Of a stretch of 64,000 nucleotides of DNA, positions 6,274-51,864 are shown piece by piece. Position 1 is the stretch's first letter. Each line of letters opens with the position of its first letter. Origin of the DNA: Candidatus Parcubacteria bacterium (GTDB lineage: Bacteria > Patescibacteriota > Minisyncoccia > UBA6257 > HR35); contig AP024681.1 in assembly GCA_025999335.1 (NCBI GenBank), positions 615,610-679,609 on the forward strand, given 5' to 3'. Under the pieces are notes generated by a model. It had not been told where the DNA came from and did no database searches. It saw nothing but the letters and a program-made list of their open reading frames with translations. The position numbers were made by a program, and so were the translations under genes.

Positions 6274-6451
6274 ATTTTTTATTATTGAATTTTATATTTA
6301 TAGTTAAACAACTTCTTGGATTATGCAATCAATAACAACCTATAATTAAATTATACTATAAATTTTATATAATTCAATATATTAACTTGTTAAATTAAAT
6401 TAATTATGTTATAATATATAAGGTCGTTATTAATTTATTGATACTTTTAAA

Positions 6452-36509: not shown

Positions 36510-36524
36510 ATTTAAAATTTTCTA

Positions 36525-38132
36525 ATGATTAAGAAATATTTGCTTATTATTTTTATTATAGTTTTATTATTTTTTGTTAGTTATTTTATTTTTGTAAATA
36601 AAAATTTTGTAAATCAATATATTGAAAATAGTAATAATAACAACATTAAAAATCAAATTCAAACTATTTCAAATATTAATCATCCAAAGATTGTTGAATT
36701 ACAAAATGGAGACTCTTATGATTTAAATATTGATTTTGTAAATCATAATATAAATGGAAAAACTTATCGTATGTTAGCTTATAATGGCAGCATACCTGGG
36801 CCTATCATAAAAGTAAAACAGGGAAGTGAAATCACATTAAAAGTGAAAAACAATACTAATTTTTCTACTCTTTTGCATTCTCATGGTGTTAGATTAGAAA
36901 ACCAATTTGACGGAACACATCTTGTCCAAAAAGAAATTAATCCCGGAGAAACTTTTGCTTATAAAATTAAATTTCCCGATTTTGGTTTTTATTGGTATCA
37001 TCCTCATTTAAGAGAAGATTTGCAACAAGAATTAGGTCTTTATGGAGGTTTTTTGGTTATTCCTTCTAATAATGATTATTGGTTAAAAATAAATAAAGAA
37101 GAGTTTTTATTTTTAGATGATATTTTAATTGAAAATAACAATCTTGTTTTGAATTATGAAAACGCTGATCATACTTTAATGGGAAAATTTGGCAATATTA
37201 TGCTTACTAATGGACAAACATATTATTCTTTAAAAGTTAACAAAGGTGAAGTTATAAGATTTTATATTGTTAACACAGCCAATGTTCGTCCTTTTAATTT
37301 TTCTATTGAAAATACGAAATTAAAATTAATTGGTTCAGATAATGGTTTATACGAGAAGGCACGTTGGGTAGATTCGGTTTTAATTGCGCCTTCAGAAAGA
37401 TATATTGTTGAAGCACTATTTGACAAAGAAGGTAAATTTAAGATTCAAAATAAAACCCCAAATAAGAGTTATGATTTAGGCGAAATTATAGTAGAATCAA
37501 GTTTTACAGATATCTCTTATGCTAATTTTTTTAATAAATTTACGGATTATGAAAAAACAACCAAAGATATAGTGAATTTAAAACAATATTTAGCAAAAAA
37601 ACCTGACAAAGAAATATGGCTTGCAATGAATATGGGTATGATGATGAACAACGAATCTATGGGTATGATGATGACTATGATGAATAATAATATGAACCAT
37701 AATAATCATAATAATAGTATGATGCAAGCAGCAGACAATATAGAATGGGAAGACAGAAATCCATCAATGAATAAAATATCAAATATAAAGAATATTCAAT
37801 GGAAAATTATTGATAAAGAAAATGGTTTAGAAAATATGGATATTCAATGGAAATTTAAAAAAGGTGATTTAGTGAAAATTAGAATTTTTAATGACCCAAA
37901 TTCTATGCATTCAATGCAACACCCTATTCATATTCATGGACAAAGATTTTTAGTTTTAGCTCGTAATGGCGTACAAGAGAATAATTTTGCTTGGAAAGAT
38001 ACGGTTTTAGTGAAAACAGGAGAAACAGTTGATATTTTAGTTGACTTTTCTAATCAAGGTAAGTGGTTAATACATTGTCATATTCCAGAACATATGGAAG
38101 CAGGAATGATGATGCAATTTGAAGTAGAATAA
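36525..38132 (+). CDS. Multicopper oxidase (CueO/CopA-like) with a Met-rich insert
   Basis: Copper-ligand motifs 'HSHGVRL', 'WYHPHLRED', 'HPIHIHGQRF', 'HCHIPEHMEAGMM'; Met-rich 'MNMGMMMNNESMGMMMTMM'. Confidence 0.85.
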   Translation: MIKKYLLIIFIIVLLFFVSYFIFVNKNFVNQYIENSNNNNIKNQIQTISNINHPKIVELQNGDSYDLNIDFVNHNINGKTYRMLAYNGSIPGPIIKVKQGSEITLKVKNNTNFSTLLHSHGVRLENQFDGTHLVQKEINPGETFAYKIKFPDFGFYWYHPHLREDLQQELGLYGGFLVIPSNNDYWLKINKEEFLFLDDILIENNNLVLNYENADHTLMGKFGNIMLTNGQTYYSLKVNKGEVIRFYIVNTANVRPFNFSIENTKLKLIGSDNGLYEKARWVDSVLIAPSERYIVEALFDKEGKFKIQNKTPNKSYDLGEIIVESSFTDISYANFFNKFTDYEKTTKDIVNLKQYLAKKPDKEIWLAMNMGMMMNNESMGMMMTMMNNNMNHNNHNNSMMQAADNIEWEDRNPSMNKISNIKNIQWKIIDKENGLENMDIQWKFKKGDLVKIRIFNDPNSMHSMQHPIHIHGQRFLVLARNGVQENNFAWKDTVLVKTGETVDILVDFSNQGKWLIHCHIPEHMEAGMMMQFEVE

Positions 38133-38199
38133 AATTAAAATTTTATTAGTTTTGTTTAAGGAATAATTTATTAATATTAAATTGTAAAATAATATTTAA

Positions 38200-38829
38200 A
38201 TGATCGGATATAAACTGCTAAAGTTATTCAGCATTGTTTTTGTTTTAGTGCCTATTGTTATTATTTTTGCTCATTGTCCGTTGTGTACTGCTGGAGCTGG
38301 AATAGGCGCTTTAATTGCTAAAGAATTAGGAATGAAATCTTCGGCGATTGGGGTTTGGATGGGCGCTTTTAGTGTGGCTTTGGGATGGTGGTTGGGAAAT
38401 GTGGTTATGAAGCGTGCCGCGCGTTTCATCCCCAGAAGCCACCCGTCTGCTGAACAGGCAGGCATAGCCCTCGGCTCGGCATTCGCCGATCGTCTCCGCC
38501 GGAATGAACCGCGTTGGCACGCTTTTCTATTAGTTTCATTAATATTACTATCTTTTCTATCGATTATCTTGCCTCTAAAGCTTTATTTTTATGAAATTGG
38601 ATCTTTTTCAATTTTTTGGTTTGGAGATTATGGAAGTTTGTTTAATCGTACTTATGTTTATGATCAATTTTTACTGGGTTCAATTATTGGAGGATTGATG
38701 ATTATAATTTCAACTTTTATTAGCAAAAAAATCATTCAATTACGTCAAAATAAAATTTTTCCTTATCAAGGTCTTATAATTACTTTTATTTTATTGATAA
38801 TTATTACTATTTTCTTTCAATTTAAATAA
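38200..38829 (+). CDS. Hypothetical membrane protein containing a GC-rich in-frame insertion
   Basis: TM helices; 'HCPLCTAGAG' near the N-terminus. Confidence 0.4.
   Translation: MIGYKLLKLFSIVFVLVPIVIIFAHCPLCTAGAGIGALIAKELGMKSSAIGVWMGAFSVALGWWLGNVVMKRAARFIPRSHPSAEQAGIALGSAFADRLRRNEPRWHAFLLVSLILLSFLSIILPLKLYFYEIGSFSIFWFGDYGSLFNRTYVYDQFLLGSIIGGLMIIISTFISKKIIQLRQNKIFPYQGLIITFILLIIITIFFQFK
38409..38524. repeat. About 115-nt GC-rich (roughly 60% GC) segment with imperfect terminal inverted repeats, inserted in-frame
   Basis: gaaGCGTGCCGCGCG...CGCGTTGGCACGC termini; GC content roughly double the surroundings; encodes KRAARFIPRSHPSAEQAGIALGSAFADRLRRNEPRWHA. Confidence 0.4.
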
Positions 38830-39362
38830 TGGATGAATTAAATAAAAATATTAACGAACAACAAATAGGTAAACATGAAAGCTATGCGCTTAAAAAACAA
38901 CGCAAAGAGGAAGAACGAAGAAAACGACAGCGCAAAAAAATTATAAAAAAAATAATAAATGTTGCATTGATTGTTATTATTATTAGTGCTGGAATTTTTG
39001 GTTTAATTTGGCTTAAATTGAACAGTCCTAATTTACCTCCAACCTCATTAGAAGGTCATATTGAGGAATCTCCGCCGGGGCATATTTTATCTGAGCCAAT
39101 GCCCGAAGTTATTCAAAAACATATGCTTGAACATGCCGATGGCAAGGGCAAGCCAGGTGTTATTATTCAATATAATTGTCAAAAATATGTTTGCGAACCA
39201 GATTTAATACAAAAACTAACTGAGTTAGTAAAACAATATCCAGAAAATGTTTATCTTGCTCCAAATAATTACGATGGAAAAATAATTTTAACTAAACTTG
39301 GCAAAATTCAGATTTTAGATGTCTTTGATGAACAAAAAATTAGAAAATTCATTGAGGAATGA
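38829..39362 (+). CDS. Hypothetical membrane-anchored protein (Lys/Arg-rich N-terminus, one TM)
   Basis: ORF; start overlaps the upstream stop (ATGA). Confidence 0.35.
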   Translation: MDELNKNINEQQIGKHESYALKKQRKEEERRKRQRKKIIKKIINVALIVIIISAGIFGLIWLKLNSPNLPPTSLEGHIEESPPGHILSEPMPEVIQKHMLEHADGKGKPGVIIQYNCQKYVCEPDLIQKLTELVKQYPENVYLAPNNYDGKIILTKLGKIQILDVFDEQKIRKFIEE

Positions 39363-39484
39363 TTAAATATCTAAATACATCAACTTAATAAAACAAGTAA
39401 TAAAAAATAATTTTTAAATAATATACTCAGAAAAATATTATAATTTATATAGAAATGGATGAGAATTATTTACCTTAAAACCCA

Positions 39485-39922
39485 ATGGTCCCAATTGAAT
39501 ATGAAACTTTAATAGTTTTTCTTTCAACATCTATAATTTTTATTTTTGTTCTAATTTTTAATGCAATTTTTAAAAAGAAAATTTGCGCCGTTTGTGCATC
39601 AGTATTTTTAACCTGGTTAATATTTTTGGTTCTTTATTATTTTGGTTATTTTCAAAACTTATTGGTTTTAGCTCTTTTAATAGGATCGAGCGCAAGCGGA
39701 ATTTTTAATCTTTTAAAAGAAAAGTTAAATATTTTTAAACTGCCATTTATTCTAACTCTTTTAACAATTGCTTATTTTCTTTTATTAAAACAAATTGATA
39801 TCGCTCTTTTGATTTTTAACTTAATTTTATGGCTATTGTTTGCTTTAATATTTTTATTTTCAAAGAACCAAAACCTAAAATCAATCTTTCAAAAATTAAT
39901 TGAATGTTGTAAAGATTGGTGA
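39485..39922 (+). CDS. Hypothetical multi-pass membrane protein
   Basis: ORF; four hydrophobic helices. Confidence 0.3.
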   Translation: MVPIEYETLIVFLSTSIIFIFVLIFNAIFKKKICAVCASVFLTWLIFLVLYYFGYFQNLLVLALLIGSSASGIFNLLKEKLNIFKLPFILTLLTIAYFLLLKQIDIALLIFNLILWLLFALIFLFSKNQNLKSIFQKLIECCKDW

Positions 39923-40073
39923 AATTAATTATTTTAGTCTTTTAATTTTATAAATTTTCTTTAACAAATAAACTATTCCAAATATATTAAAAACCAATCC
40001 TAACCAAAATAATTTTATTTGGTACTGACTAATTAAGTTGATAATACCAATGGCTCCAAGAATAGGCAGTATA

Positions 40074-40373
40074 TTAACAAAATAATGAGCGCAACAGGAT
40101 ATCATAGCTACAGTGGAGGTTGTTCCAGATACAGCCAGAACACCGCTGGATGTTTTTTTTTTGATTAATAATAGTTTTTAAATAAACATAAAGCCCAACT
40201 TGAATTCCAAATCCTATTGTTAAACCAATAAAAAAATACCAGAACTGCAAAAACTGACTTAAGGCAAAAGACCAACCAGATATTAAACTAACCATAGAAA
40301 AATAAATAGCCAATAATAAAATTGTTCCAGAAAAACCATATATTACAGATTTTAATAAGATTCTTTTATCCAT
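40074..40373 (-). CDS. Hypothetical small membrane protein
   Basis: ORF; TM helices; C-terminal 'CSGC'. Confidence 0.25.
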   Translation of the reverse strand: MDKRILLKSVIYGFSGTILLLAIYFSMVSLISGWSFALSQFLQFWYFFIGLTIGFGIQVGLYVYLKTIINQKKNIQRCSGCIWNNLHCSYDILLRSLFC

Positions 40374-40417
40374 ATTTTGTTTTAAATAATTTCTAATTTT
40401 CTATAGAAATATAGAAA

Positions 40418-41044
40418 TTAAATTTTTTGTTCTTCATTAATTTTTCTAATTTCTTGAAGAAGAAAGTCATTACGGATGCCCATATCAGGATCATCTAAAA
40501 TATAACGAACTATCCCTTCTTTATCAATGATAACATAACTGTGACCCGGATATAAGCCAGGATGCATTGAAGAAGGTATATTTAACATACCAAAATTTTT
40601 AGAAGCTGATTTATTAACATCAAATAAAACAATAGCTTGCTTAAGTTCCGGCATCTTTTGAATAGCTTGCTTCCATTCTTCAGGCGAATCAACAATAATG
40701 GAAAGAACAATTGTTTTTTCTGTTTCAAATCTTTTATCTTTAGTTAAAGCAACCATTTGTTGCCAGCAAGATGGATAGCACATTACACCTTCATTAAAAA
40801 ATAGCAATACATTTTTACCTCGAAAGTTTTTTAAAGAATAAACCTCGCTATCAATGCCTAAAAGTTCAAAATCTGGCGCTGGTTTGTTGATTATTTCTTT
40901 GTTGATCAAAAGAAGATTGTGATGTTTAAAATGTTCTTTTTGAGAAATCTCTTGTTTTGATGGTTCTTTCGATGCTGGCAGTAATAATAGAAAAATGATA
41001 ATTACTGCTAAAACGATTGGCAAAATAATTACTAGGTTTTTCAT
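40418..41044 (-). CDS. Thioredoxin-fold redoxin-family protein (TlpA/peroxiredoxin-like), membrane-anchored
   Basis: N-terminal TM; 'PAPDFELLGIDSEVYSLKNFRGKNVLLFFNEGVMCYPSCWQQ'. Confidence 0.55.
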   Translation of the reverse strand: MKNLVIILPIVLAVIIIFLLLLPASKEPSKQEISQKEHFKHHNLLLINKEIINKPAPDFELLGIDSEVYSLKNFRGKNVLLFFNEGVMCYPSCWQQMVALTKDKRFETEKTIVLSIIVDSPEEWKQAIQKMPELKQAIVLFDVNKSASKNFGMLNIPSSMHPGLYPGHSYVIIDKEGIVRYILDDPDMGIRNDFLLQEIRKINEEQKI

Positions 41045-41143
41045 CGTGTTTTAAATTTTAAATACCCCGACTGGGTATATTATATCACAATTTTGATTTA
41101 TTTGACAAATATGTTATAATTGAAATAAAAGTATTAATAATTT

Positions 41144-41250
41144 GTCGCGAACTAATACAAACTGTACGCGAACCACTGCGAACTATATCAGTATTGTGGT
41201 ATCAAAAAGTTCGCAACAGTTCGCGAGAAGGTTCGCAAGGGTTCGCGATT
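41144..41250. repeat. GTTCGCR repeat element (promoter-proximal copy)
   Basis: tcGCGAACtaatacaaactgtacGCGAACcactGCGAACtatat...aaaaaGTTCGCAacaGTTCGCGagaagGTTCGCAaggGTTCGCGat: GCGAAC units followed by GTTCGC units, forming a large imperfect inverted repeat; 35 nt are near-identical to 42596-42631. Confidence 0.5.
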
Positions 41251-41263
41251 TGCAAATCCAAAA

Positions 41264-43474
41264 ATGAAAAAATATATTTGTCCAATGGGATGCCTTGAGC
41301 CTCAAGATCAGCCCGGAAATTGTCCTGTTTGTGGAATGAAGCTTGTTGAAGTTGAGGAAAAATATCACAAAAAACACAAAGAAAAACACGAAGAACATTT
41401 AGATAAACATCAAGGCCATCGAACTGAAGATTTTCTCAAAAAATTTTGGTTATCTTTGATTTTAACTATTCCGATAGTTCTTTATTCTGATATTTTTCAA
41501 AAAATTAGTAACATAAAATTACCTTCTTTTGAGGGAATTCAATATTTGCCTTTTGGGCAGACAGGTTTAATTATGCTTCTTGGTTCTATTGTCTTTTTTT
41601 ATGGTGGTTTTGTTTTTCTTGTTGGTGCTTATCGAGAAATAAAAGCAAAGAATCCGGGAATGATGACTTTGATTGCTTTAGCGGTAGTATCTGCTTATGT
41701 TTATAGTGTTTTTGCTGTTTTATTCAAAATTGGACATGAATTTTTCTGGGAATTAGCAACCTTAATTACGATTATGCTTTTGGGACATTATTTTGAAATG
41801 AAATCAGTTTCTTCAGCGCAACGAGCTTTACAGGAGATTGAAAAGTTATTGCCTGATATCGCGGAATTAGAAGACGGAAGAAAAGTGAAATTAGATGAAT
41901 TAAAGTTAAATGATATTGTAATTGTTCGGCCCGGAGGAAAGATTCCTGCTGATGGTATTGTTATTGAGGGAAAATCTGAAGTTAATGAAAGTATGATAAC
42001 TGGAGAAAGTAAACCGGTTTTAAAAGAAATTGGTTCAGAAGTCATTGCTGGAACAATTAATGGTGATGGAGTTTTAAAAGTCAAAGTAACAAAAATTGGC
42101 GAAGAGACATTTTTGGCAGGAATTAAAAGATTAATTAAAGAAGCGCAAGCATCAAAATCAAAACTTCAAGTTTTAGCTGATGTTTTTGCGAAATATTTGA
42201 CTTTTATTGCTATAGGTATAGGTTCTTTGAGTTTTATTATTTGGCTTTTGTTACAAAAAAATCTTGCTTTTGCCCTTGAAAGATTGGTAACAGTTTTGAT
42301 TGTTGCTTGTCCTCATGCTTTAGGTTTAGCAGTTCCCTTAGTTGTGGCAATTTCAACATCTTTAGCAATTCATAACGGCTTTTTAATTAGAAACAGATTA
42401 CAACTTGAGCTGGCAAGAAAAATAGATGTTGTTTTATTTGATAAAACTGGGACCTTAACTTCTGGAAGATTTAAGGTAAGAGAAATTATAACGCGAACCG
42501 ATGCGAACAACGATGACAACCGCGAACTTATGCGAACAGATAATGACAAAGTTCGCGAGAGTTCGCAAGAGTTTGCGTCTGAAAACAATGTTCGCAATAG
42601 TTCGCGAGAAGGTTCGCAAGAGTTTGCGATATTACAATTAGCAGCCTCCTTAAATCAATACTCCCAACATTTTATTGCTCAAGGGATTTTAGAAAAAGCA
42701 AAAGAGCAGGGAATTAAACTTTTAAAAGTTGAGGAATTTGAAAATCTAACTGGTAGAGGAGTTAAAGGAAAAATTAATGGAAAAACTTATTATCTTGGCG
42801 GTAATAATTTGTTAAAGGAACTGGGTTACCCGAATGAAAACCGAATAAATTACCCGAATGAAAATCAAATTGGAACAACGGTCTATCTTATTGATGAAAA
42901 TAAAAATCTTTTAGGAGCAATTGTGTTGGAAGATGAAATCCAGGAAGAATCTTTTGAAGCTGTTAAGAATTTACATCAAATGGGAATTAAAGTAGCAATG
43001 ATAACCGGTGATAAAAAAGAAGTTGCTGAAAAAGTTGCCAAGGAGTTAGGAATTGATGAGTATTTTGCTGAAGTTTTACCAGAAGATAAAGTTAATAAAG
43101 TTAAAGAACTTCAAAAAAGAAATTTAAAAGTAATGATGGTTGGCGATGGAATTAATGACGCTCCGGCATTGATGCAAGCTGATGTTGGTGTGGCAATTGG
43201 GGCAGGTACAAATGTGGCTATTGAATCAGCGGGAATAATTTTAGTCAGAAATGATCCAAGAGATATTGTTAAATTAATTGAGCTTTCAAGAAAAACTTAT
43301 CGCAAAATGATTGAAAACCTCTTTTGGGCAACTGGCTATAATATTGTTGCTTTACCACTCGCAGCTGGGATTTTAGCTTTTAAAGGAATCTTTCTTTCCC
43401 CAGCTTTAGCTGCAATCTTTATGTCTCTTTCAACAGTAATTGTTGCTGTTAATGCGTTGGGGTTGAGAGGTTGA
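41264..43474 (+). CDS. copB: Copper-translocating P1B-type ATPase (CPH motif, His-rich N-terminus; CopB-like)
   Basis: 'CPMGC...CPVCGM' N-terminal metal site; His-rich 'KYHKKHKEKHEEHLDKHQGH'; TM 'ACPHALGLA'; 'DKTGTLT', 'GDGINDAPAL', 'MITGD'. Confidence 0.9.
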   Translation: MKKYICPMGCLEPQDQPGNCPVCGMKLVEVEEKYHKKHKEKHEEHLDKHQGHRTEDFLKKFWLSLILTIPIVLYSDIFQKISNIKLPSFEGIQYLPFGQTGLIMLLGSIVFFYGGFVFLVGAYREIKAKNPGMMTLIALAVVSAYVYSVFAVLFKIGHEFFWELATLITIMLLGHYFEMKSVSSAQRALQEIEKLLPDIAELEDGRKVKLDELKLNDIVIVRPGGKIPADGIVIEGKSEVNESMITGESKPVLKEIGSEVIAGTINGDGVLKVKVTKIGEETFLAGIKRLIKEAQASKSKLQVLADVFAKYLTFIAIGIGSLSFIIWLLLQKNLAFALERLVTVLIVACPHALGLAVPLVVAISTSLAIHNGFLIRNRLQLELARKIDVVLFDKTGTLTSGRFKVREIITRTDANNDDNRELMRTDNDKVRESSQEFASENNVRNSSREGSQEFAILQLAASLNQYSQHFIAQGILEKAKEQGIKLLKVEEFENLTGRGVKGKINGKTYYLGGNNLLKELGYPNENRINYPNENQIGTTVYLIDENKNLLGAIVLEDEIQEESFEAVKNLHQMGIKVAMITGDKKEVAEKVAKELGIDEYFAEVLPEDKVNKVKELQKRNLKVMMVGDGINDAPALMQADVGVAIGAGTNVAIESAGIILVRNDPRDIVKLIELSRKTYRKMIENLFWATGYNIVALPLAAGILAFKGIFLSPALAAIFMSLSTVIVAVNALGLRG
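42491..42631. repeat. GTTCGCR repeat element inserted in-frame (about 47 codons) in the ATPase N-domain just after DKTGTLT
   Basis: acGCGAACcgatGCGAACaacgatgacaacCGCGAACttatGCGAACag...aaaGTTCGCGagaGTTCGCAagagtttgcg...atGTTCGCAataGTTCGCGagaagGTTCGCAagagtttgcgat; encodes RTDANNDDNRELMRTDNDKVRESSQEFASENNVRNSSREGSQEFA. Confidence 0.5.
43386..43468. repeat. Left direct repeat (attL-like): the in-gene 3' end of the ATPase
   Basis: 57/57 identity (43412-43468 vs 47615-47671) plus about 25 nt at roughly 80% identity upstream. Confidence 0.55.
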
Positions 43475-43484
43475 TTTAACAAAC

Positions 43485-43514
43485 TTGACAAGGTTTGTTT
43501 TTGTTGTGTATAAT
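43485..43514 (+). promoter_or_regulatory. Near-consensus sigma70-type promoter upstream of the precursor peptide gene
   Basis: TTGACA (43485-43490), 18-nt spacer, TATAAT (43509-43514); about 80 nt upstream of the precursor ATG. Confidence 0.45.
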
Positions 43515-43592: not shown

Positions 43593-43772
43593 ATGAGGAA
43601 AATAATATTAAAAAATAATGATAAAAAAAGAATTGCTAGTATCTATTCGAGAGAACCAGAGTATACGCAAATAAGAAAGGTGAATTTGGTAGCTGGTCCA
43701 TGTGACAATTCTAGCAATGGATGTACAGGTAGTTGCAATCATTCATCGGGTGCCATTCAACAACTCAAATAA
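43593..43772 (+). CDS. TOMM/LAP-type RiPP precursor peptide (59 aa), not in the ORF track
   Basis: MRKIILKNNDKKRIASIYSREPEYTQIRKVNLVAGPCDNSSNGCTGSCNHSSGAIQQLK. Charged leader plus a Cys/Ser/Thr/Gly-rich C-terminal core (GPCDNSSNGCTGSCNHSSG), 53 nt upstream of the YcaO gene. Confidence 0.6.
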   Translation: MRKIILKNNDKKRIASIYSREPEYTQIRKVNLVAGPCDNSSNGCTGSCNHSSGAIQQLK

Positions 43773-43824: not shown

Positions 43825-45096
43825 ATGTTAATTAAGGAAAGAAGGCTAGAGGGAATATCAAAAATTAAAATATATAAAAATACTAGATGGTATGATTTAC
43901 CATTCATATGGCAATATGCGGCTTTTTTTTCTAATTTTAAAAAAAACAATATCTTTGGAGTAGGATCTTCATTGATTTCTCGAAAAATAGCTATTACTCG
44001 AGCTTTTTATGAGTTGCTAGAAAGATTTTCGCTTAGCTACCCTTCTCTTAATAAATTTTTAAGGCTCAGTTTTTCTGAAATAGACGAAGATAGAACAATA
44101 CCGTACAATGTTTGGTTCAAGAAAAATGATGTTGAAAAAAACCAAAAAATAAATCCAAAATTAATTAAAAATATACCTTCTTTAGATGATAAATTATACT
44201 TTGCGTGGGGTTACAATTTAATTAATAGAGAAAAAGTTTTAATTCCTGCACAGTTAATCTATGTTCCTCCAAAAAGATTTATCGAAAAAATAATTCGTGA
44301 GTCAAATAGTACCGGGGCTGCTGCTGGTAAAAATTTAAAACAATGTTTGATTAAAGGTATTTTAGAAATTTTAGAAAGAGATGCGTTTATAAATTATTAT
44401 TTAAACGAATTTTTTGGTGAAAGGATAGATCTTAGCAGATTTAAAAATATTAAATGCTTTATTAATAAATTTAGAAAATACCATTTAGAAATATATTCTT
44501 TTTATCTACCTTCCGATATAGAAATTTTTAATGTGGTGACTTTCTTAATAGATAAATCAGGCATGAGTCCAATTATAAATTGTGGTTCTGCCTCAGGGTT
44601 TGAGATCGAAAATTGTATTTTAAAAAGCCTTGAAGAATCTCTTCAGGTTTTAATGTGGATAAGATTACTTTCTTTAACTAAAAGAATTAGTACTATAGAT
44701 CTTAACACTCTTGAGAACAGGGGATTTTTTTGGATGGATAATAAAAAATTGAAATTAATATATCAATGGGTAAATAAATCAAGAAAACCAAAACAACTTA
44801 ATTCTTTAATTAAAAAGCTTAAAAATAACAAAAATAACCGTTTAAATTATCTTATTGAGCAAATTAAAAATCATAATTATAATATATATTATTCTGAAAT
44901 TACTTCTGAAAAATTCAAAAAATTAAAAGTAAAAGTAATTAAAGTGATAATTCCTCAATTGCAATGGATATATTTAGGCGAAGATTTTAAATTTATTAAT
45001 TGGGAACGAATTAAAAAGATCAGAGAAATTAACAATCTTAAACCTTTTGATGTAGATGCTAACAAATTAAATAAAGTGCCACATTTTTTTTTATAA
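43825..45096 (+). CDS. YcaO-domain cyclodehydratase (TOMM 'D' protein)
   Basis: 'GVGSSLISRKIAITRAFYELLERFSL' and 'SNSTGAAAGKNLKQCLIKGILEILERDA' are YcaO ATP-binding signatures; C-terminal '...VPHFFL'. Confidence 0.8.
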   Translation: MLIKERRLEGISKIKIYKNTRWYDLPFIWQYAAFFSNFKKNNIFGVGSSLISRKIAITRAFYELLERFSLSYPSLNKFLRLSFSEIDEDRTIPYNVWFKKNDVEKNQKINPKLIKNIPSLDDKLYFAWGYNLINREKVLIPAQLIYVPPKRFIEKIIRESNSTGAAAGKNLKQCLIKGILEILERDAFINYYLNEFFGERIDLSRFKNIKCFINKFRKYHLEIYSFYLPSDIEIFNVVTFLIDKSGMSPIINCGSASGFEIENCILKSLEESLQVLMWIRLLSLTKRISTIDLNTLENRGFFWMDNKKLKLIYQWVNKSRKPKQLNSLIKKLKNNKNNRLNYLIEQIKNHNYNIYYSEITSEKFKKLKVKVIKVIIPQLQWIYLGEDFKFINWERIKKIREINNLKPFDVDANKLNKVPHFFL

Positions 45097-45113: not shown

Positions 45114-45893
45114 ATGAAAGAGAAATTAAGTTATGTAATATTAAAAAAATTAGCTTCAAATTATGAAAATGTCAACAATTTTGAATTTTTAAAATACTTT
45201 AAAAAATCCTCTATAGATAAATTCCATAAAACTATCAAAAATTATCCCGAAAGCTGGAAAAAAATTAATTTTAAAACATACGCAAGGTTCTCCAATGTTT
45301 TGCTTAATAAAAATTTTGGAAAGGATGAGCTTTTAAAAATTATTTTTAAAAGAAGAAGTGAGAGAAATTTTCAAAAATATCCTTTAAGTTTGAAAGAAAT
45401 TTCTTATTTTCTCCTAGGAGCAACAATTACCAAGGTTTTTGATAATAATTTCGATTATAACTCATTTAGAGCTTATCCTTCGGCTGGAGCCCGTTACTCT
45501 CTTGAGGTATATTTATTTTTATTATCATCAAAAGATCTAAAAAGGGGCTTGTATCATTATAATGTAAGATTTCATTGTTTAGAGTATATGTGGGATTTTA
45601 AGAAAAAAGATTTAATAAAAATTTTTAATCAAAAATTTATTCTAAATAGTAGTTTAATAATTTTTATTACTTGTGTTATTAAAAGAATTTATCCTAAATA
45701 TGGTGAAAGAAGCTTGAGATTGGCTCTATTAGAGGCAGGACATTTAGCTCAAAATTTTTTACTGTTAGCTACAAAATTAGGGCTGAAATCTTGTCCAGTG
45801 GGTGGTTTTAAAGAACAAAAAATTTTAGAAATTTTAGATATATCTCAGGAAGAACAAGAATTGCCCCTTTATTGTATAATAATAGGAAAATGA
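45114..45893 (+). CDS. SagB-type (McbC-like) FMN-dependent dehydrogenase (TOMM 'B' protein)
   Basis: 'FKRRSERNF', 'YPSAGARYSLEVYLF', 'LLEAGHLAQNF', 'CPVGGF'. Confidence 0.8.
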   Translation: MKEKLSYVILKKLASNYENVNNFEFLKYFKKSSIDKFHKTIKNYPESWKKINFKTYARFSNVLLNKNFGKDELLKIIFKRRSERNFQKYPLSLKEISYFLLGATITKVFDNNFDYNSFRAYPSAGARYSLEVYLFLLSSKDLKRGLYHYNVRFHCLEYMWDFKKKDLIKIFNQKFILNSSLIIFITCVIKRIYPKYGERSLRLALLEAGHLAQNFLLLATKLGLKSCPVGGFKEQKILEILDISQEEQELPLYCIIIGK

Positions 45894-47539
45894 CATTAGA
45901 AATGATTTTATCTAAAGAAAAAGGACCGTTGAGAGAACATATTTTTTGTGATATTAAGTTTTTGAGAATCGGCACTAAAGAACTAATTACAGAGAGCAAA
46001 CTTATTGTTCGTTCAAATGAAAAGGTAGCTTTAATTGGAAGAAATGGAAGTGGGAAATCAACTTTAATTAGATTGATAATTAGTTTTTATGAAAAAAGAG
46101 ATGTTTCCGAAGATTTAGAATTTTCTGGTAAGATTTTTATTTCCCCTGAAATTAAGATAGCTTATCTACCTCAAGAAATTAAACTACAATTTTCTGGTAC
46201 TGTTGAAGAATATTTAGAATGGAGAGGTGGTGAATTTGTAAAACTAGTTAAAAGATATAAAGAGTTTTCCGAAAAAGGAGAATTTTCTTTAGAAGAAGCA
46301 GAAGAATATTCACGAATAATTGAAAGAATGACTCAATTTAATTTATGGGATTATGAAGGAAAAAGAGATAGAATTTTAAAAAAATTAAATATTAGATCAG
46401 AAATTCTAAATAGAGATGTCCAGGAGATATCTGGTGGTGAAGCTACAAAAATAACTTTAGCTGGAATTCTACTTTCTGATGCTAATTTCTGGATTCTTGA
46501 TGAGCCAACTAACAATTTAGATAAGGATTCTATAGATATCCTTTTTGAAGAAATGAGAAGGTTTAGGGGAGGAATTTTATGTATTACTCACGATAGAAGA
46601 CTTTTAAATATTTCTTCAAGAATTTTTGAGATAGATGAAGAAACTAAAACTTTAAAAGTTTGGGGAGGTAATTATGAATTTTATAAAAAAGAAAAGGAAA
46701 AAGAATTTTTGGGGAGGATGAAAAAATTTGAGGAACAAGAAAGAAAAAGGAAAAAATTAGAAAAAGCTATTGAGGAGTTAAAGAAAAAATCTCAAGAATT
46801 TGAAAAAATTGGCCGTGATGCTTTTTACAGAGCAAAAGGATCTAAAATAGCTAAACAAGCTAAGGTTCAAGAAGAGAGAATTTTAAGAGAACTTTCTCAG
46901 CTTACCGAACCTCAGCCTCCAGAAAGGCCAGAGTTTCCTAAGTCACAACCAGAAGTTTTAAAAGGAAATGTGCTTTCAATTAAAGGCTTATCTTATTCTT
47001 TTAATGATAAGATTTCAATTAATATTCCTTATTTAATTCTAGAAGCCGGGGAAAGGCTTTTAATAGAAGGACCAAACGGTTCTGGTAAAACAACTTTGAT
47101 TAGACTCATTCTTGGTGAAATAAAACCATCAGAAGGAAAAGTAACTCTTAAAGAAAGTATTATAATTGGATATTTACCTCAATCACCTAAAATCGAAAAT
47201 ATCAGCCAAAAAGTTTATCAATTTCTAAAAACTGAACATAATATTAATGAAGGGGAGACTAAAGCTATTCTTAATAGAATGAAAATACCACATGTTTTCA
47301 ATTTGACTTTAAAAGATCTAAGCATTGGCGAAATAAGAAGATTACAACTTGCTGCTATTTTATTTAAAAATCCAGACCTTTTAATTTTGGATGAGCCAAC
47401 TAATCATCTTGATATTTATACCATTGAAGAACTTGAAGTGGCGTTGAAAGATTATAAGGGAACAATAATTTTTGTTTCTCATGATAAATATTTTATAAAC
47501 ACTTTAAAACCAACCCAAAAAATAGTTTTAAAAAGATAA
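45872..47539 (+). CDS. ABC-F family ATPase (two ABC domains, no TM, charged interdomain linker); candidate self-immunity/ribosome-protection protein
   Basis: Walker A 'GRNGSGKST' and 'GPNGSGKTT'; signature 'SGGE'/'SIGE'; 'ILDEPTNNLD'/'ILDEPTNHLD'; KE-rich linker at about 270-320; 22-nt overlap with the SagB-like gene. Confidence 0.7.
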   Translation: MYNNRKMTLEMILSKEKGPLREHIFCDIKFLRIGTKELITESKLIVRSNEKVALIGRNGSGKSTLIRLIISFYEKRDVSEDLEFSGKIFISPEIKIAYLPQEIKLQFSGTVEEYLEWRGGEFVKLVKRYKEFSEKGEFSLEEAEEYSRIIERMTQFNLWDYEGKRDRILKKLNIRSEILNRDVQEISGGEATKITLAGILLSDANFWILDEPTNNLDKDSIDILFEEMRRFRGGILCITHDRRLLNISSRIFEIDEETKTLKVWGGNYEFYKKEKEKEFLGRMKKFEEQERKRKKLEKAIEELKKKSQEFEKIGRDAFYRAKGSKIAKQAKVQEERILRELSQLTEPQPPERPEFPKSQPEVLKGNVLSIKGLSYSFNDKISINIPYLILEAGERLLIEGPNGSGKTTLIRLILGEIKPSEGKVTLKESIIIGYLPQSPKIENISQKVYQFLKTEHNINEGETKAILNRMKIPHVFNLTLKDLSIGEIRRLQLAAILFKNPDLLILDEPTNHLDIYTIEELEVALKDYKGTIIFVSHDKYFINTLKPTQKIVLKR

Positions 47540-47675: not shown

Positions 47676-47700
47676 AACCGCAAGTTTGCGGGGATTTTAT
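47676..47700 (+). terminator. Rho-independent terminator
   Basis: CCGCAA-gt-TTGCGG followed by GGATTTTATTTATATTTTT. Confidence 0.5.
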
Positions 47701-47784
47701 TTATATTTTTAATCTTTAAAATACTATTCATGATTTTATTAATTTTCTTGAGATTATTTTATAATAAATAAAAAGTAAAATAAT

Positions 47785-48399
47785 ATGTATAACATCCTTA
47801 TTTTTGGTGATAGTATAGCAGCGGGTAGAAAAATAAATAAAATAAAGTCGTGGCCATCTCTTTTAGCTCAATTTCTTGATAAGAAAGATAAAGATTTTAC
47901 GCTCGTTCATAATTTAAGTATTCCCGGAGATTCAAGTAATGATGTTTTAAAAAGATTCTCCGTAGAAGCTGAGGCAAGATGTAAAAAAATTTATCCTGAT
48001 GATCGTTGTTCGATTATTTTTACTATAGGTATAAATGATACAAAATGTATTAATTCTGTAAACAATCCTGTTACAAATGAAAAAACCTTTCTAAAGAATA
48101 TAATTTCGCTTATTGAAAGGGCACAAAAATACACTAACCATATTATTTTTGTTGGCTTAACTCCAGTTGATGAAAGTAAAACAATTTCTTTAGATGGTGT
48201 TTATTTTTTTAATGAAAAAATAAAAGCATATGAAAAAATAATCCAAGATGAATGTAAAAAAAGAAAAATTGTGTTTTTAGATATTGTTAATGAGTGGTTA
48301 AAATCCAATTATTTGAGATTTCTTTCAAATGACGGAATCCATCCTAATGAGAAGGGGCATCAAAAAATTTTCAAAAAAGTGAAGATATTATTTAAATAA
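47785..48399 (+). CDS. SGNH/GDSL-family hydrolase
   Basis: 'ILIFGDSIAAG' (block I Ser), 'GINDT', C-terminal 'DGIHPNEKGHQ' (Asp-His). Confidence 0.7.
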   Translation: MYNILIFGDSIAAGRKINKIKSWPSLLAQFLDKKDKDFTLVHNLSIPGDSSNDVLKRFSVEAEARCKKIYPDDRCSIIFTIGINDTKCINSVNNPVTNEKTFLKNIISLIERAQKYTNHIIFVGLTPVDESKTISLDGVYFFNEKIKAYEKIIQDECKKRKIVFLDIVNEWLKSNYLRFLSNDGIHPNEKGHQKIFKKVKILFK

Positions 48400-48404
48400 A
48401 ATTA

Positions 48405-48926
48405 ATGTTTATTCAAATATTAAATATTTTCAAAAGACCCGTTTATTTAATTTCTTGGATATTTTTGACTTTCATTTTTGTTACTTTTTTCATAATAGTT
48501 CAAATTTATTTTACGCCTGATTATCGAGCCAATCCTGAACTTATATTTTTAGTTTTAAAACCAAAAGATTATTTTCTTTTGACTACTTTTGCTTTTTTAA
48601 TTGCTTTAAATTTTGTTTTGTCTGTTTACACTTTTAGATTGACAAATAAAATATTTGATTCCAGTAAATCTTTAATTCAAAACATACCAGCAGTTTTTTC
48701 TTCGTTATTTACTGGCATTATTGCAACTGCTTTTTGTACTTCTTGTTTAGTTTCAGTTTTAAGTTTTTTAGGAACATCTACTGCTTTTGGTTTAACTCTT
48801 TTTTCTTTAAAATACAAAAGCTGGATAATTTTAGGAAATTTCATATTTTTAATCCTGTTAACTTTTTATAATTTGAAAAATATCAGTAAAATTGTGAATA
48901 AAAACGAAAAAGAGTGTAATTGCTAA
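48405..48926 (+). CDS. Hypothetical multi-pass membrane protein
   Basis: ORF; TM helices. Confidence 0.3.
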   Translation: MFIQILNIFKRPVYLISWIFLTFIFVTFFIIVQIYFTPDYRANPELIFLVLKPKDYFLLTTFAFLIALNFVLSVYTFRLTNKIFDSSKSLIQNIPAVFSSLFTGIIATAFCTSCLVSVLSFLGTSTAFGLTLFSLKYKSWIILGNFIFLILLTFYNLKNISKIVNKNEKECNC

Positions 48927-51555: not shown

Positions 51556-51864
51556 ATGATTTTAGTTTACATAACAAATCCAGATAAAAAGACAGCTTTA
51601 AAAGTTAGCAAATATTTACTTGAAAAAAGACTTGTTGCTTGTATTAATATTTTTAAAATTCAAAGTTTGTATTGGTGGAAAGGAAAGATTGAAGATGCTA
51701 ATGAATATGTTGTGATTGCTAAAACAATTTCTAGAAATTATTCAAAAATAGAAAAAGAAATAAGGAAAATTCATCCTTATAAAATTCCATGCATAATGAA
51801 AATTAAAGTCGATAAAATTAATAAAGATTATTTAAATTGGCTTTTAAATAATATAAAATCATAA
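51556..51864 (+). CDS. cutA: CutA1 divalent-cation tolerance protein
   Basis: 'ILVYITNPDKKTALKVSKYLLEKRLVACINIF..IQSLYWWKGKIEDANEYVVIAKT'. Confidence 0.7.
   Translation: MILVYITNPDKKTALKVSKYLLEKRLVACINIFKIQSLYWWKGKIEDANEYVVIAKTISRNYSKIEKEIRKIHPYKIPCIMKIKVDKINKDYLNWLLNNIKS

What the first reader, a model, noticed from the sequence alone, without database searches (positions are those of the whole stretch)
45872..47539. ABC-F ATPase translationally coupled to the TOMM genes, suggesting a ribosome-targeting product with self-immunity
The protein has two ABC cassettes, no transmembrane domain and a KE-rich interdomain linker, which is ABC-F architecture. Antibiotic-resistance ABC-F proteins protect the ribosome from exit-tunnel and peptidyl-transferase-centre binders. 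Known LAPs such as klebsazolicin and phazolicin bind the ribosomal exit tunnel. The start codon overlaps the dehydrogenase gene by 22 nt, which argues for co-expression. No exporter is encoded inside the islet.
Basis: inference. Interest (0 to 1): 0.6.

Follow-up and report, generated by a model that had tools for sequence, protein, structure and literature searches.

The report
Ribosome-protection ATPase inside azole-peptide operon
A tiny uncultured Parcubacteria genome carries a four-gene operon in which a peptide-antibiotic (azole peptide) pathway ends with a ribosome-binding ABC-F ATPase of the antibiotic-resistance type. This linkage is kept across a whole clade of related operons, which suggests that the peptide attacks the ribosome and that the ATPase protects the producer.

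Summary
The ABC-F gene is real. It has two ABC cassettes, no membrane segment and a charged helical linker. Its likely start is the ATG at 45890, which overlaps the dehydrogenase stop by 4 nt (ATGA), not 22 nt.

It is the last gene of a promoter-to-terminator unit: precursor, YcaO, SagB dehydrogenase, ABC-F. The genome is Ca. Parcubacteria KatS3mg097.

The same four-gene order recurs in 8 further distinct loci, 9 with the window, in about five different flanking contexts. YcaO identity falls to 35% and ABC-F identity to 41% across them. Seven of these YcaOs, with the window's, form one clade with 100% bootstrap support. About 60 more distant CPR YcaO–SagB loci lack an ABC-F. One has a different ABC-F inserted between YcaO and SagB.

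The ABC-F is not EttA, Uup, YbiT or YheS. It passes only the "ribosomal protection-like ABC-F" model. Its linker is about 21 residues longer than EttA's, like producer-type resistance ABC-Fs.

One caveat weakens the case. Three close ABC-F orthologues sit without any TOMM genes, one of them at the same LepA–Dtd position. The linker-tip motif is also conserved across a much wider CPR clade.

Best reading (about 0.5): a recruited ARE-like ABC-F gives self-protection against a ribosome-targeting azole peptide. This is a new variant of a known kind and is unproven.

The parts
43485..43514 (+). Promoter-like site, TTGACA-18 nt-TATAAT (12/12 match). It lies 11 nt after the Cu-ATPase stop and about 80 nt before the precursor ORF.
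   Evidence: The total number of promoter-like sites in the region is not above the shuffled expectation, but this is the only perfect match.
43593..43772 (+). Precursor peptide ORF, 59 aa (KatS3mg097_642). The core is ...AGPCDNSSNGCTGSCNHSSGAIQQLK.
   Evidence: The core motif C-x-N-S-x-N-G-C-T-G-S-C-N-H-S-S-K also appears upstream of the YcaO in L011, L172, L010 and L013.
43825..45096 (+). YcaO cyclodehydratase, 423 aa (BCX15751.1). No E1-like or C-protein partner is present in the operon.
   Evidence: Pfam YcaO 2.8e-38. TIGR03604 SagD scores 159 bits, below its cutoff of 219. It belongs to the 100%-bootstrap ABC-F-linked YcaO clade.
45114..45893 (+). SagB-type FMN dehydrogenase, 259 aa.
   Evidence: TIGR03605 129.5 bits, cutoff 78.4; Pfam Nitroreductase 3.7e-22.
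45890..47539 (+). ABC-F ATPase, 549 aa (BCX15753.1). The start ATG overlaps the SagB stop as ATGA. The mechanical ORF begins at TTG 45872.
46673..46900 (+). Interdomain linker (ARD/PtIM-equivalent), residues 262-337. It forms a helical hairpin: helix 262-306, loop IGRD 307-310, helix 311-337. It is about 21 residues longer than in EttA.
   Evidence: AlphaFold2 secondary structure. Landmark-to-landmark lengths. Alignment showing the insertion at the hairpin tip. A linker-only PDB search gives VmlR, Sal(B), VmlR2 and MsrE as best hits.
46796..46843 (+). Linker tip, residues 303-318 (EFEKIGRDAFYRAKGS). It carries the clade-wide motif [DN][AD]F[YRK]R-x-K-G.
   Evidence: The motif is present in 73 of 80 members of the CPR+Dormibacteraeota clade. 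It is lost in the two TOMM-linked homologues whose precursor cores have diverged (P0003/L002 and P0022/L008).
47678..47701 (+). Terminator-like GC hairpin (CCGCAAGTTTGCGG) followed by a T-rich tail, 139 nt after the ABC-F stop.

Best explanation
The gene encodes a soluble ABC-F ATPase of the long-linker, antibiotic-resistance-like type. It is transcribed and translated as the last cistron of a four-gene operon for a linear azole-containing peptide (LAP): precursor, YcaO, SagB, ABC-F.

Proposed mechanism:
- YcaO and SagB convert Cys/Ser/Thr of the roughly 20-residue conserved core into azoles.
- The mature peptide binds the large ribosomal subunit near the peptidyl-transferase centre or the entrance of the exit tunnel, as klebsazolicin and phazolicin do.
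- The ABC-F, made in step with the enzymes through ATGA coupling, binds the ribosomal E site in its ATP form.
- It pushes its extended helical hairpin (tip ...GRDAFYR...) towards the peptidyl-transferase centre and dislodges or excludes the peptide.
- It then leaves after ATP hydrolysis. This is target protection acting as self-immunity.

What is shown: the gene identities, the operon structure, the conserved linkage, the ARE-like architecture, and non-membership of the E. coli housekeeping subfamilies.

What is inferred: ribosome binding by this protein, the ribosome as the peptide's target, and the protective role.

The ABC-F was probably recruited from a pre-existing CPR-wide ABC-F lineage rather than invented for this operon.
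For: 1. Operon structure.
- A perfect -35/-10 promoter precedes the precursor, and a hairpin with a T-rich tail follows the ABC-F.
- All four genes lie on one strand, with the ATGA overlap.
- In relatives the SagB to ABC-F spacing is -4 to +71 nt by the gene calls; L011 is called with a 23-nt overlap from what is probably too early a start.

2. Conserved linkage.
- Nine distinct loci have [small ORF]-YcaO-SagB-ABC-F: window, L002, L005, L176, L008, L007, L011, L172 and L010.
- They sit in about five different flanks: Cu-ATPase; RtcB-intein with a cation ATPase; LepA-Dtd; MFS with CysRS; lasso-like genes.
- Eight of these YcaOs (window, L002, L005, L176, L008, L007, L011, L172) form one clade with 100% bootstrap support. 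L010 groups with L013 as its weakly supported sister (51.5%).
- Pairwise YcaO and ABC-F identities co-vary, Spearman 0.85.

3. Asymmetry typical of producer/immunity pairs. In this subclade the biosynthetic trio is never seen without the ABC-F (0 of 9). The ABC-F does occur without the trio (L001, L006, L175), with no YcaO or SagB remnants.

4. Specificity.
- About 60 more distant CPR YcaO-SagB loci lack an ABC-F within about 7 kb and have unrelated Cys-rich cores.
- The ABC-F-linked group shares the core CxNSxNGCTGSCNHSSK.

5. A second, independent association. L085 has a different ABC-F (armless, 172-residue linker) inserted between YcaO and SagB.

6. ARE-like features.
- NF000355 is passed at 389.3 bits (cutoff 380), and it is the model with the best E-value across the 22 clade members, all of which match it.
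- The distance from H-loop 1 to Walker A2 is 160 residues. EttA/Uup/YbiT/YheS have 139-142, the OleB family 164 and MsrE 175.
- The insertion sits at the hairpin tip.
- The linker alone best matches VmlR, Sal(B), VmlR2 and MsrE.
- Murina et al. 2019 (PMC6723617) report that the ARE1-5 subfamilies carry linker extensions averaging about 30 residues over EttA.

7. Suggestive co-variation. The two TOMM-linked homologues with divergent precursor cores (L002, L008) are among only 7 of 80 clade members that have lost the tip motif.

8. No exporter or other immunity gene is in the operon, and there is no other ABC ATPase in the 64-kb window.

9. Precedent from established knowledge. ABC-F self-resistance genes sit in the macrolide, lincosamide and streptogramin gene clusters (OleB, CarA, SrmB, TlrC, LmrC, VarM). 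The LAPs klebsazolicin and phazolicin bind the ribosomal exit tunnel (review PMC7136475).
Against: - Three close orthologues (85%, 63% and 50% identity) stand alone. L175 has LepA-Dtd-ABC-F where L176 has LepA-Dtd-[precursor-YcaO-SagB]-ABC-F. That pattern fits a resident gene next to which the trio is gained or lost.
- The long linker and its tip motif are conserved across an 80-member CPR+Dormibacteraeota clade. Most of that clade shows no detected YcaO on the same contig. The ARE-like architecture is therefore not specific to this peptide.
- All TOMM linkages trace to one acquisition plus L085, so the number of independent events is small.
- No RiPP has been shown to be countered by an ABC-F. 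My literature searches found none.
- The deep phylogeny is unresolved, with under 20% support, so no named ARE subfamily can be assigned.
- I could not check whether this is the only ABC-F in the 680-kb genome.
Confidence: 0.5

Rival explanations
1. The ABC-F is a resident, lineage-wide translation factor or intrinsic-resistance factor of Parcubacteria. It has no specific relation to the peptide. The precursor-YcaO-SagB trio was inserted upstream of it once and has stayed there by inheritance. Co-transcription is incidental, or merely borrows the downstream gene's expression.
For: - TOMM-less orthologues are nested among TOMM-linked ones. P0001 is sister to the window protein with 97% bootstrap support, and P0004 and P0023 also nest there.
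- LepA-Dtd-ABC-F in L175 compares with LepA-Dtd-trio-ABC-F in L176.
- The tip motif and linker length are conserved in 73 of 80 sequences of a broad CPR+Dormibacteraeota clade.
- Genes for a HisKA_7TM two-component system recur near the ABC-F with or without TOMM genes.
- The linkage traces to a single origin.
Against: - Both flanks of the module change repeatedly, yet the four genes stay contiguous and tightly spaced in 9 of 9 loci.
- The trio is never seen without the ABC-F in this subclade.
- A second, unrelated ABC-F is embedded in another YcaO-SagB pair (L085).
- The protein is not in any E. coli-type housekeeping subfamily.
- ABC-Fs are dispensable in many reduced genomes: they are absent from 214 bacterial species (PMC6723617).
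- The nearest TOMM-less copy (L001) is split by a frameshift in a poly-A run. This could also be an assembly error.
Confidence: 0.3
2. The ABC-F acts as a regulator or sensor, like LmrC. It would respond to ribosomes occupied by the peptide, or by a related antibiotic, and tune expression of the operon or of other genes. It would not give bulk protection.
For: - There is a precedent. The ABC-F LmrC, encoded in the lincomycin gene cluster, is a signal-transducing component rather than the main resistance factor (PMC8546547, listed).
- Two-component system genes recur nearby.
Against: - No attenuator-like leader or separate regulated promoter is seen before the ABC-F. It is translationally coupled to SagB.
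- The operon has no other immunity gene that could provide the protection.
Confidence: 0.1
3. The ABC-F is the ATPase of an exporter for the peptide, working with membrane proteins encoded elsewhere, for example the 173-aa membrane protein at 48405-48926.
For: - There is no dedicated exporter in the operon.
- A conserved small membrane protein directly follows the ABC-F in L002 and lies nearby in the window, at 69% identity.
Against: - The two cassettes are fused, with an ABC-F linker and arm and no transmembrane domain. The fold matches ribosome-bound ABC-Fs.
- The membrane protein is absent from the other TOMM-linked loci. It belongs to the local metal-homeostasis neighbourhood.
- ARE ABC-Fs have been shown not to act as pumps (PMC6723617).
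Confidence: 0.03

Closest known systems
Producer self-resistance ABC-Fs encoded in antibiotic gene clusters (OleB/CarA/SrmB/TlrC family = ARE4; LmrC/VarM = ARE5)
   Same: - It is encoded inside and co-expressed with a biosynthetic gene cluster.
- It has the same architecture: arm retained, linker about 160-169 residues from H-loop 1 to Walker A2, and a short C-terminus. A Streptomyces OleB-family protein has arm 91, linker 164 and C-terminus 30, against 86, 160 and 19 here.
- These proteins and other long-linker actinobacterial ABC-Fs are the nearest non-CPR neighbours in the tree, although support is under 20%.
   Different: - It is not a member: NF000171 scores 235 bits against a cutoff of 800.
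- The cluster makes a ribosomally synthesised azole peptide, not a macrolide, lincosamide or streptogramin.
- The host is an uncultured Parcubacteria bacterium with a genome of about 0.68 Mb.
Chromosomal or plasmid ARE ABC-Fs VmlR, Sal(B), Msr(E), Vga and Lsa
   Same: - The linker alone gives its best PDB sequence matches to VmlR (6ha8), Sal(B) (7p48), VmlR2 (8buu) and MsrE (5zlu).
- The hairpin tip is extended, and the protein passes the generic ribosomal-protection-like ABC-F model NF000355.
   Different: - It scores below every subfamily cutoff: Sal 274/725, Msr 251/680, Vga 251/725, Lsa 194/750.
- It retains the arm subdomain, which MsrE (42 residues against 86 here) and the ARE1/ARE2 subfamilies (Murina et al. 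2019, PMC6723617) have greatly reduced.
- Its linker is about 15 residues shorter than MsrE's.
Klebsazolicin and phazolicin gene clusters (ribosome exit-tunnel LAPs)
   Same: - It has a short precursor with a Cys/Ser/Thr-rich core of about 20-27 residues, a YcaO cyclodehydratase and a SagB-type dehydrogenase.
- The ribosome is the predicted target (review PMC7136475).
   Different: - Those clusters rely on a dedicated exporter for immunity and have an E1-like partner fused or adjacent to the YcaO (my own knowledge, not tested here).
- This operon has neither. It has an ABC-F instead.
CPR LAP clusters described by Sharrar et al. 2020 (PMC7298704)
   Same: - These are YcaO plus adjacent nitroreductase plus a small precursor in Parcubacteria and Microgenomates.
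- They report 110 clusters in 93 CPR genomes, 89 of them with a nitroreductase next to the YcaO, and they speculated on a ribosome target.
   Different: - No ABC-F appears in the passages of that paper retrieved around 'YcaO'; the example cluster described there carries a peptidase.
- In my sample the ABC-F-less loci often carry an M16-type peptidase after SagB and have unrelated precursor cores.
Housekeeping ABC-Fs EttA, Uup, YbiT and YheS
   Same: The overall ABC-F fold is shared (Foldseek E 1e-35 to 1e-38), and an arm subdomain is present.
   Different: - It scores far below their cut-offs: EttA 255/807, Uup 245/900, YbiT-type 226/762, YheS-type 184/917.
- It lies outside their clades.
- Its linker is about 20 residues longer.
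- It has no C-terminal domain, with only 19 residues after H-loop 2.

Membership tests
ABC-F (ABCF) ATPase family | Two ABC nucleotide-binding domains in one polypeptide, each with Walker A, Walker B plus catalytic Glu, and an H-loop | tested here: met
   Pfam ABC_tran, 2 stretches, 5.8e-47. Motifs GRNGSGKS/LDEPTNNLD/THD and GPNGSGKT/LDEPTNHLD/SHD were located. The second signature motif is the degenerate LSIGE.
ABC-F (ABCF) ATPase family | No transmembrane domain | tested here: met
   The maximum 19-residue Kyte-Doolittle mean is 1.18.
ABC-F (ABCF) ATPase family | Charged alpha-helical interdomain linker (PtIM/ARD), and a fold like ribosome-bound ABC-Fs | tested here: met
   The AlphaFold2 model has a hairpin at 262-306/311-337, pLDDT 87.6. 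ABC_tran_Xtn scores 24 bits, just below its cutoff of 25.9. The Foldseek top 25 are all ABC-F-family proteins, most of them ribosome-bound.
ARE (antibiotic-resistance / ribosomal-protection) ABC-F | Passes NCBI's ribosomal-protection-like ABC-F model NF000355 | tested here: met
   389.3 bits against a cutoff of 380. All 22 clade members match it, and it is the family with the best E-value among them, 1.1e-129. The margin over the cutoff is narrow.
ARE (antibiotic-resistance / ribosomal-protection) ABC-F | Linker extended relative to EttA (typical of ARE1-5, not universal) | tested here: met
   The distance from H-loop 1 to Walker A2 is 160 residues, against 139 in EttA. The insertion is at the hairpin tip.
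ARE (antibiotic-resistance / ribosomal-protection) ABC-F | Membership of a named ARE subfamily (Msr, Vga, Lsa, Sal, OptrA, PoxtA, CplR, OleB/CarA) | tested here: not met
   All subfamily models score far below their cut-offs. The tree places the protein in a separate CPR+Dormibacteraeota clade with 94% support.
ARE (antibiotic-resistance / ribosomal-protection) ABC-F | Confers resistance to, or displaces, a ribosome-bound inhibitor | not testable with these tools
   This needs expression and translation assays.
Housekeeping EttA / Uup / YbiT / YheS subfamilies | Passes the subfamily HMM cut-off and groups with the E. coli protein | tested here: not met
   EttA 255/807, Uup 245/900, PRK15064 (YbiT-type) 226/762, PRK10636 (YheS-type) 184/917. 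It lies outside the EttA clade (89-90% support) and the other clades.
BGC-embedded self-resistance gene | Co-located and co-oriented with the biosynthetic genes, with the linkage conserved among related clusters | tested here: met
   9 of 9 distinct loci of the YcaO subgroup have the linkage, in about five flanking contexts. It is absent from the more distant YcaO-SagB loci.
BGC-embedded self-resistance gene | The gene is restricted to producers, or is patchy as an accessory gene | tested here: inconclusive
   Three close orthologues have no TOMM genes. Whole-genome presence or absence could not be surveyed.
TOMM / LAP biosynthetic cluster | YcaO cyclodehydratase plus FMN dehydrogenase plus a precursor with a Cys/Ser/Thr-rich core | tested here: met
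TOMM / LAP biosynthetic cluster | E1-like (C protein) or Ocin-ThiF-like partner for the YcaO | tested here: not met
   There is no such gene between the promoter and the terminator, nor in the homologous operons. TIGR03604 scores below its cutoff. No recognisable fused partner domain was detected in the 423-aa YcaO: Pfam and NCBIfam match only YcaO-type models, spanning residues about 52-420; no dedicated partner or RRE-domain search was run.

The most novel reading that the evidence does not exclude
A family of Parcubacteria azole peptides with the conserved core CxNSxNGCTGSCNHSSK inhibits the ribosome at the peptidyl-transferase centre or the tunnel entrance. The operon's ABC-F is then the first example of ABC-F target protection used as immunity against a ribosomally synthesised peptide. 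On this reading, the linker tip co-evolves with the peptide core. Stand-alone copies in related genomes are orphan immunity genes kept because neighbours produce the peptide.
Probability: 0.4. Interest if true: 0.75.

Novelty: new variant of a known kind. Interest (0 to 1): 0.6.

Why it matters
ABC-F self-resistance genes are an accepted marker of ribosome-targeting small-molecule antibiotics. Finding one conserved inside a minimal RiPP operon would extend resistance-guided genome mining to peptides.

It gives a concrete, small and testable lead: four genes and a core of about 20 residues, pointing to a new ribosome inhibitor from uncultured CPR bacteria.

It would also show that ABC-F target protection can work against a peptide ligand.

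Finally, it would hint at how ultra-small, host-dependent bacteria compete or interact through translation inhibitors.

Tried and rejected
- **Genome scan with the ABC-F alignment.** The generic Walker B patterns (DEPTNNLD, LDEPTNHL) saturated the scan. It returned only ABC-Fs of about 30% identity from unrelated phyla. These were useless for orthologue context and were kept only as outgroups and for the linker-length distribution.
- **Homologue search with the 59-aa precursor.** It found only the precursor itself, so precursor-based expansion of the family failed.
- **Foldseek against the PDB.** It confirms the ABC-F fold but does not separate ARE from housekeeping proteins. PoxtA, EttA, Uup, YbiT and VmlR2 all score alike.
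- **Deep phylogeny.** Neighbour-joining with 100 bootstraps leaves the relationships between subfamilies unresolved, at under 20% support. No sister ARE subfamily can be claimed.
- **Promoter scan.** The number of promoter-like sites is not above chance in this AT-rich DNA. Only the single 12/12 match is used, and only as a lead.
- **Search for remnants.** A tblastn search for YcaO or SagB remnants beside the TOMM-less ABC-Fs found none.
- **Exporter idea.** The conserved 173-aa membrane protein belongs to the metal-homeostasis neighbourhood and is absent from the other operons, so I rejected it as a partner.
- **Literature searches.** Queries for ABC-F with YcaO, with RiPP and with Parcubacteria found no prior description of the linkage. 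The library covers only open-access papers.
- **Sole ABC-F question.** I could not determine whether this is the only ABC-F in the 680-kb genome, because the context look-ups were exhausted.


Full report
**1. What is at the coordinates**

The window has about 26% G+C. The ORF at 45872-47539 on the + strand is real.
- It has two ABC_tran domains (5.8e-47) and a near-threshold ABC_tran_Xtn hit in between.
- Its best NCBIfam match is NF000355, "ribosomal protection-like ABC-F family protein", at 389.3 bits against a cutoff of 380.
- EttA (255/807), Uup (245/900), the YbiT- and YheS-type models and every named ARE subfamily model fall far below their cut-offs.
- It has no hydrophobic segment, with a maximum Kyte-Doolittle mean of 1.18.
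- Its linker, residues 262-337, is 54% charged, with 18 K and 15 E.
- An AlphaFold2 model built on 22 homologues is confident (pLDDT 87.6, pTM 0.80). It shows two nucleotide-binding domains joined by a long helical hairpin: helix 262-306, loop IGRD, helix 311-337.
- The 25 best Foldseek matches in the PDB are all ABC-F-family proteins, most of them solved on the ribosome.

So the observed architecture is confirmed.

The 22-nt overlap is not confirmed. TTG 45872 is only the first possible start. The in-frame ATG at 45890 overlaps the SagB stop codon as ATGA. It yields exactly the 549-aa protein deposited as BCX15753.1 from "Candidatus Parcubacteria bacterium" KatS3mg097, on a 680,436-bp contig. 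It also corresponds to the 4-nt overlap in the 72%-identical homologue.

**2. The surrounding unit**

Upstream on the same strand lie three genes.
- A 59-aa ORF at 43593-43772 ends in AGPCDNSSNGCTGSCNHSSGAIQQLK.
- A 423-aa YcaO lies at 43825-45096.
- A 259-aa SagB-type dehydrogenase lies at 45114-45893.

A perfect TTGACA-18-TATAAT site sits at 43485-43514, just after the stop of a copper P-type ATPase. A GC hairpin with a T-rich tail follows the ABC-F at 47678. Together they bracket a four-gene unit.

There is no E1-like partner, no protease and no exporter in the unit. The ABC-F profile finds no other ABC ATPase anywhere in the 64-kb window.

The neighbourhood from 36 to 52 kb is a metal-homeostasis region: DUF411, multicopper oxidase, AhpC, Cu-ATPase and CutA1. 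The 173-aa membrane protein at 48405-48926 is 69% identical to the gene that directly follows the ABC-F in L002. It is absent from the other related operons.

**3. Is the linkage conserved?**

Searching with the ABC-F gave a graded series of Patescibacteria homologues. Searching with the YcaO gave 24 relatives. Fetching their contigs showed the same order, small ORF, YcaO, SagB, ABC-F, in several settings.
- L002-L005: the same Cu-ATPase context.
- L007 and L011: RtcB-intein upstream; in L007 a cation ATPase downstream (L011 ends in an unidentified gene).
- L172-L174: RtcB-intein upstream, with an HD protein and a cation ATPase downstream.
- L008 and L009: MFS upstream and CysRS downstream.
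- L176: LepA-Dtd upstream.
- L010: lasso-like PqqD and Asn-synthase genes upstream.

By the gene calls the SagB to ABC-F spacing is always between -4 and +71 nt, apart from L011, where the ABC-F is called from a probably too early start (a 23-nt overlap).

A scan of metagenome contigs with a YcaO alignment gave 80 further loci, with YcaO identity of 22-45%. Nearly all have the YcaO-SagB pair but no ABC-F within the fetched flanks.

In a YcaO tree, eight ABC-F-linked sequences (window, L002, L005, L176, L008, L007, L011, L172) form one clade with 100% bootstrap support. L010, together with L013, whose contig ends inside SagB, is the weakly supported sister. Pairwise identities of YcaO and ABC-F co-vary across loci, with Spearman 0.85.

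So the module has been inherited or moved as a unit since a single origin, through at least five changes of neighbourhood.

The one exception among the distant loci is instructive. L085 has YcaO, ABC-F, SagB in that order. Its ABC-F is of a different lineage, with a reduced arm (47 residues) and a 172-residue linker, like MsrE. The nearest relative of that ABC-F (P0107) lies in a radical-SAM/SPASM cluster with a 63-aa ORF.

**4. The counter-evidence**

The ABC-F also occurs without the biosynthetic genes.
- The closest homologue (P0001, 85% identity, L001) has none.
- P0004 (63%, L006) has none.
- P0023 (50%, L175) has none.

No YcaO or SagB remnants are detectable beside them.

L175 reads LepA-Dtd-ABC-F, where L176 reads LepA-Dtd-[precursor-YcaO-SagB]-ABC-F. 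That is a clean presence/absence polymorphism of the trio next to a gene that stays put.

In the ABC-F tree these TOMM-less proteins nest among TOMM-linked ones inside a 26-member clade with 100% support. This implies several losses of the trio, or, less parsimoniously, several gains.

The L001 copy is split by a 1-nt insertion in a poly-A run. That is either decay or an assembly error.

**5. What kind of ABC-F is it?**

I aligned 206 ABC-Fs: the CPR homologues, 80 unrelated genomic ABC-Fs, E. coli EttA, Uup, YbiT and YheS, and OptrA, Msr(E), PoxtA, a Streptomyces OleB-family protein and a staphylococcal ARE-like protein.

The number of residues from H-loop 1 to Walker A2 is as follows.

| Protein or group | Residues |
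|---|---|
| EttA, Uup, YbiT, YheS | 139-142 |
| OptrA | 141 |
| Staphylococcal ARE-like protein, PoxtA | 149-150 |
| OleB-family protein | 164 |
| MsrE | 175 |
| 80 unrelated genomic ABC-Fs (median) | 140.5 |
| Window protein | 160 |
| Its CPR relatives | 155-164 |

The extra residues sit at the tip of the linker hairpin. The linker alone gives its best PDB sequence matches to VmlR, Sal(B), VmlR2 and MsrE.

The arm subdomain is retained (86 residues) and there is no C-terminal domain. This combination matches the producer-type OleB/CarA family and other long-linker actinobacterial ABC-Fs, which are also its nearest non-CPR neighbours. Support for that placement is under 20%, so no sister group can be claimed.

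Murina et al. 2019 report that ARE1-5 linkers are on average about 30 residues longer than EttA's. They also report that ABC-Fs are missing from 214 bacterial species, including many with reduced genomes (PMC6723617).

The protein therefore works like a long-linker ARE. It is a member of the generic ribosomal-protection-like family, but of no named subfamily.

**6. Peptide specificity**

The ABC-F-linked operons share a strikingly conserved core, C-x-N-S-x-N-G-C-T-G-S-C-N-H-S-S-K. It appears in the window, L011, L172, L010 and L013, even where the YcaOs are only about 35% identical. The ABC-F-less CPR clusters have unrelated Cys-rich cores. A subset of them carry an M16-type peptidase after SagB.

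The linker-tip motif [DN][AD]F[YRK]R-x-K-G is present in 73 of 80 members of the wider CPR+Dormibacteraeota clade. Two TOMM-linked homologues have precursor cores that have clearly diverged: L002 (NCSNPGCSSCNRCDYGGKCKK) and L008 (RCQPPTPPCGPCKKCSPH). Both are among the seven that have lost the motif.

With two of two divergent-core loci against none of six canonical-core loci, this is only suggestive. The clade-wide conservation of the tip also shows that it predates the association with this peptide.

**7. Interpretation**

The pattern best fits an immunity-type relationship.
- The biosynthetic trio is never seen without the ABC-F, while the ABC-F is sometimes seen alone.
- The genes are tightly coupled in one operon.
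- The linkage is kept while both flanks change.
- A second ABC-F lineage has been recruited into another YcaO-SagB pair.
- The architecture is ARE-like.
- No other immunity or export gene is present.

Known LAPs of this size, klebsazolicin and phazolicin, bind the ribosomal exit tunnel (PMC7136475). I therefore favour self-protection of the producer's ribosome against its own azole peptide (confidence about 0.5). The ABC-F was probably recruited from a pre-existing CPR ABC-F lineage.

The main rival (about 0.3) is that it is a resident lineage-wide factor, next to which the trio happened to be inserted once. A regulatory role like that of LmrC (about 0.1) and an export role (about 0.03) are less likely.

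Nothing here demonstrates ribosome binding, the peptide's target or protection.

**8. Novelty**

CPR LAP clusters with YcaO and a nitroreductase are already described, and a ribosome target has been speculated for them (Sharrar et al. 2020, PMC7298704). ABC-F self-resistance genes in small-molecule antibiotic clusters are textbook knowledge.

I found no report of an ABC-F conserved inside a RiPP or LAP operon. The searchable library holds open-access papers only.

I rate the finding a new variant of a known kind, of moderate to good interest, because it yields a compact and directly testable prediction.

Noticed in passing
L085 1-3096: A different gene order, YcaO, ABC-F, SagB. The ABC-F is armless with a 172-residue linker, like MsrE, and overlaps both neighbours. 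A methyltransferase and a HisKA_7TM-type kinase follow. This looks like an independent recruitment of an ABC-F into a CPR azole-peptide cluster.
   Followed up: partly
L188-L193 (for example L188 3580-9965): P0107, the closest relative of the L085 ABC-F, is preceded by a 63-aa ORF, a radical-SAM/SPASM enzyme and a PNP_UDP_1 nucleosidase. Another radical-SAM/SPASM enzyme follows it. This may be a second kind of RiPP-like cluster carrying an ABC-F.
   Followed up: no
L010 1052-2646: PqqD-like and asparagine-synthase-like genes, resembling lasso-peptide B1 and C genes, lie directly upstream of the YcaO-SagB-ABC-F genes. Two RiPP systems may sit side by side.
   Followed up: no
L175 10121-12335 (-) and L007 1-1541 (+): A ThiF-family protein (371-379 aa) paired with a 354-358-aa nitroreductase-like protein lies next to a HisKA_7TM sensor kinase. 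The pair recurs near the ABC-F in both TOMM-linked and TOMM-less Parcubacteria loci. Its function is unknown. It could be another peptide-modification pair, or the missing E1-like partner acting in trans.
   Followed up: no
L001 about 6290-6340: The ABC-F of the nearest TOMM-less relative (85% identity, GCA_041640295.1) is split into 72-aa and 481-aa ORFs by a 1-nt insertion in a poly-A run. This is either pseudogenisation after loss of the peptide genes or an assembly error.
   Followed up: partly
window 36018-43474, 48405-48926, 51556-51864: The four-gene module sits inside a copper and metal-homeostasis neighbourhood: DUF411-glutaredoxin, multicopper oxidase, AhpC, Cu P-type ATPase and CutA1. 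It lies between the Cu-ATPase and a conserved 173-aa membrane protein ending in CNC. Compared with L002, the window has an extra GDSL hydrolase gene (47785-48399) between the ABC-F and that membrane protein.
   Followed up: partly
window about 42500-42630 (within the Cu-ATPase gene 41264-43474): The copper ATPase carries a low-complexity insertion of about 45 residues with an internal repeat (...SSQEFASENNVRNSSREGSQEFA...) in its cytoplasmic domain.
   Followed up: no
L007 3760-6681, L011 1720-6732, L172 696-3617: The RtcB RNA ligase genes upstream of the module are interrupted by one or two inteins. The L011 protein is 1670 aa and also has LAGLIDADG and PDDEXK domains.
   Followed up: no
L014-L091 (for example L049 8988-10253): In 11-13 of the ABC-F-less CPR YcaO-SagB loci, an M16-type zinc peptidase of about 420 aa (HxxEH motif) follows SagB. 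It is probably the leader peptidase. The window-type operons have none.
   Followed up: partly
window 47318-47332 (ABC-F residues 477-481): The second ABC signature motif is LSIGE rather than LSGGx. The pattern S-x-G-E is invariant in the 22-member clade. This hints at asymmetric ATP sites, as reported for some ARE ABC-Fs.
   Followed up: no
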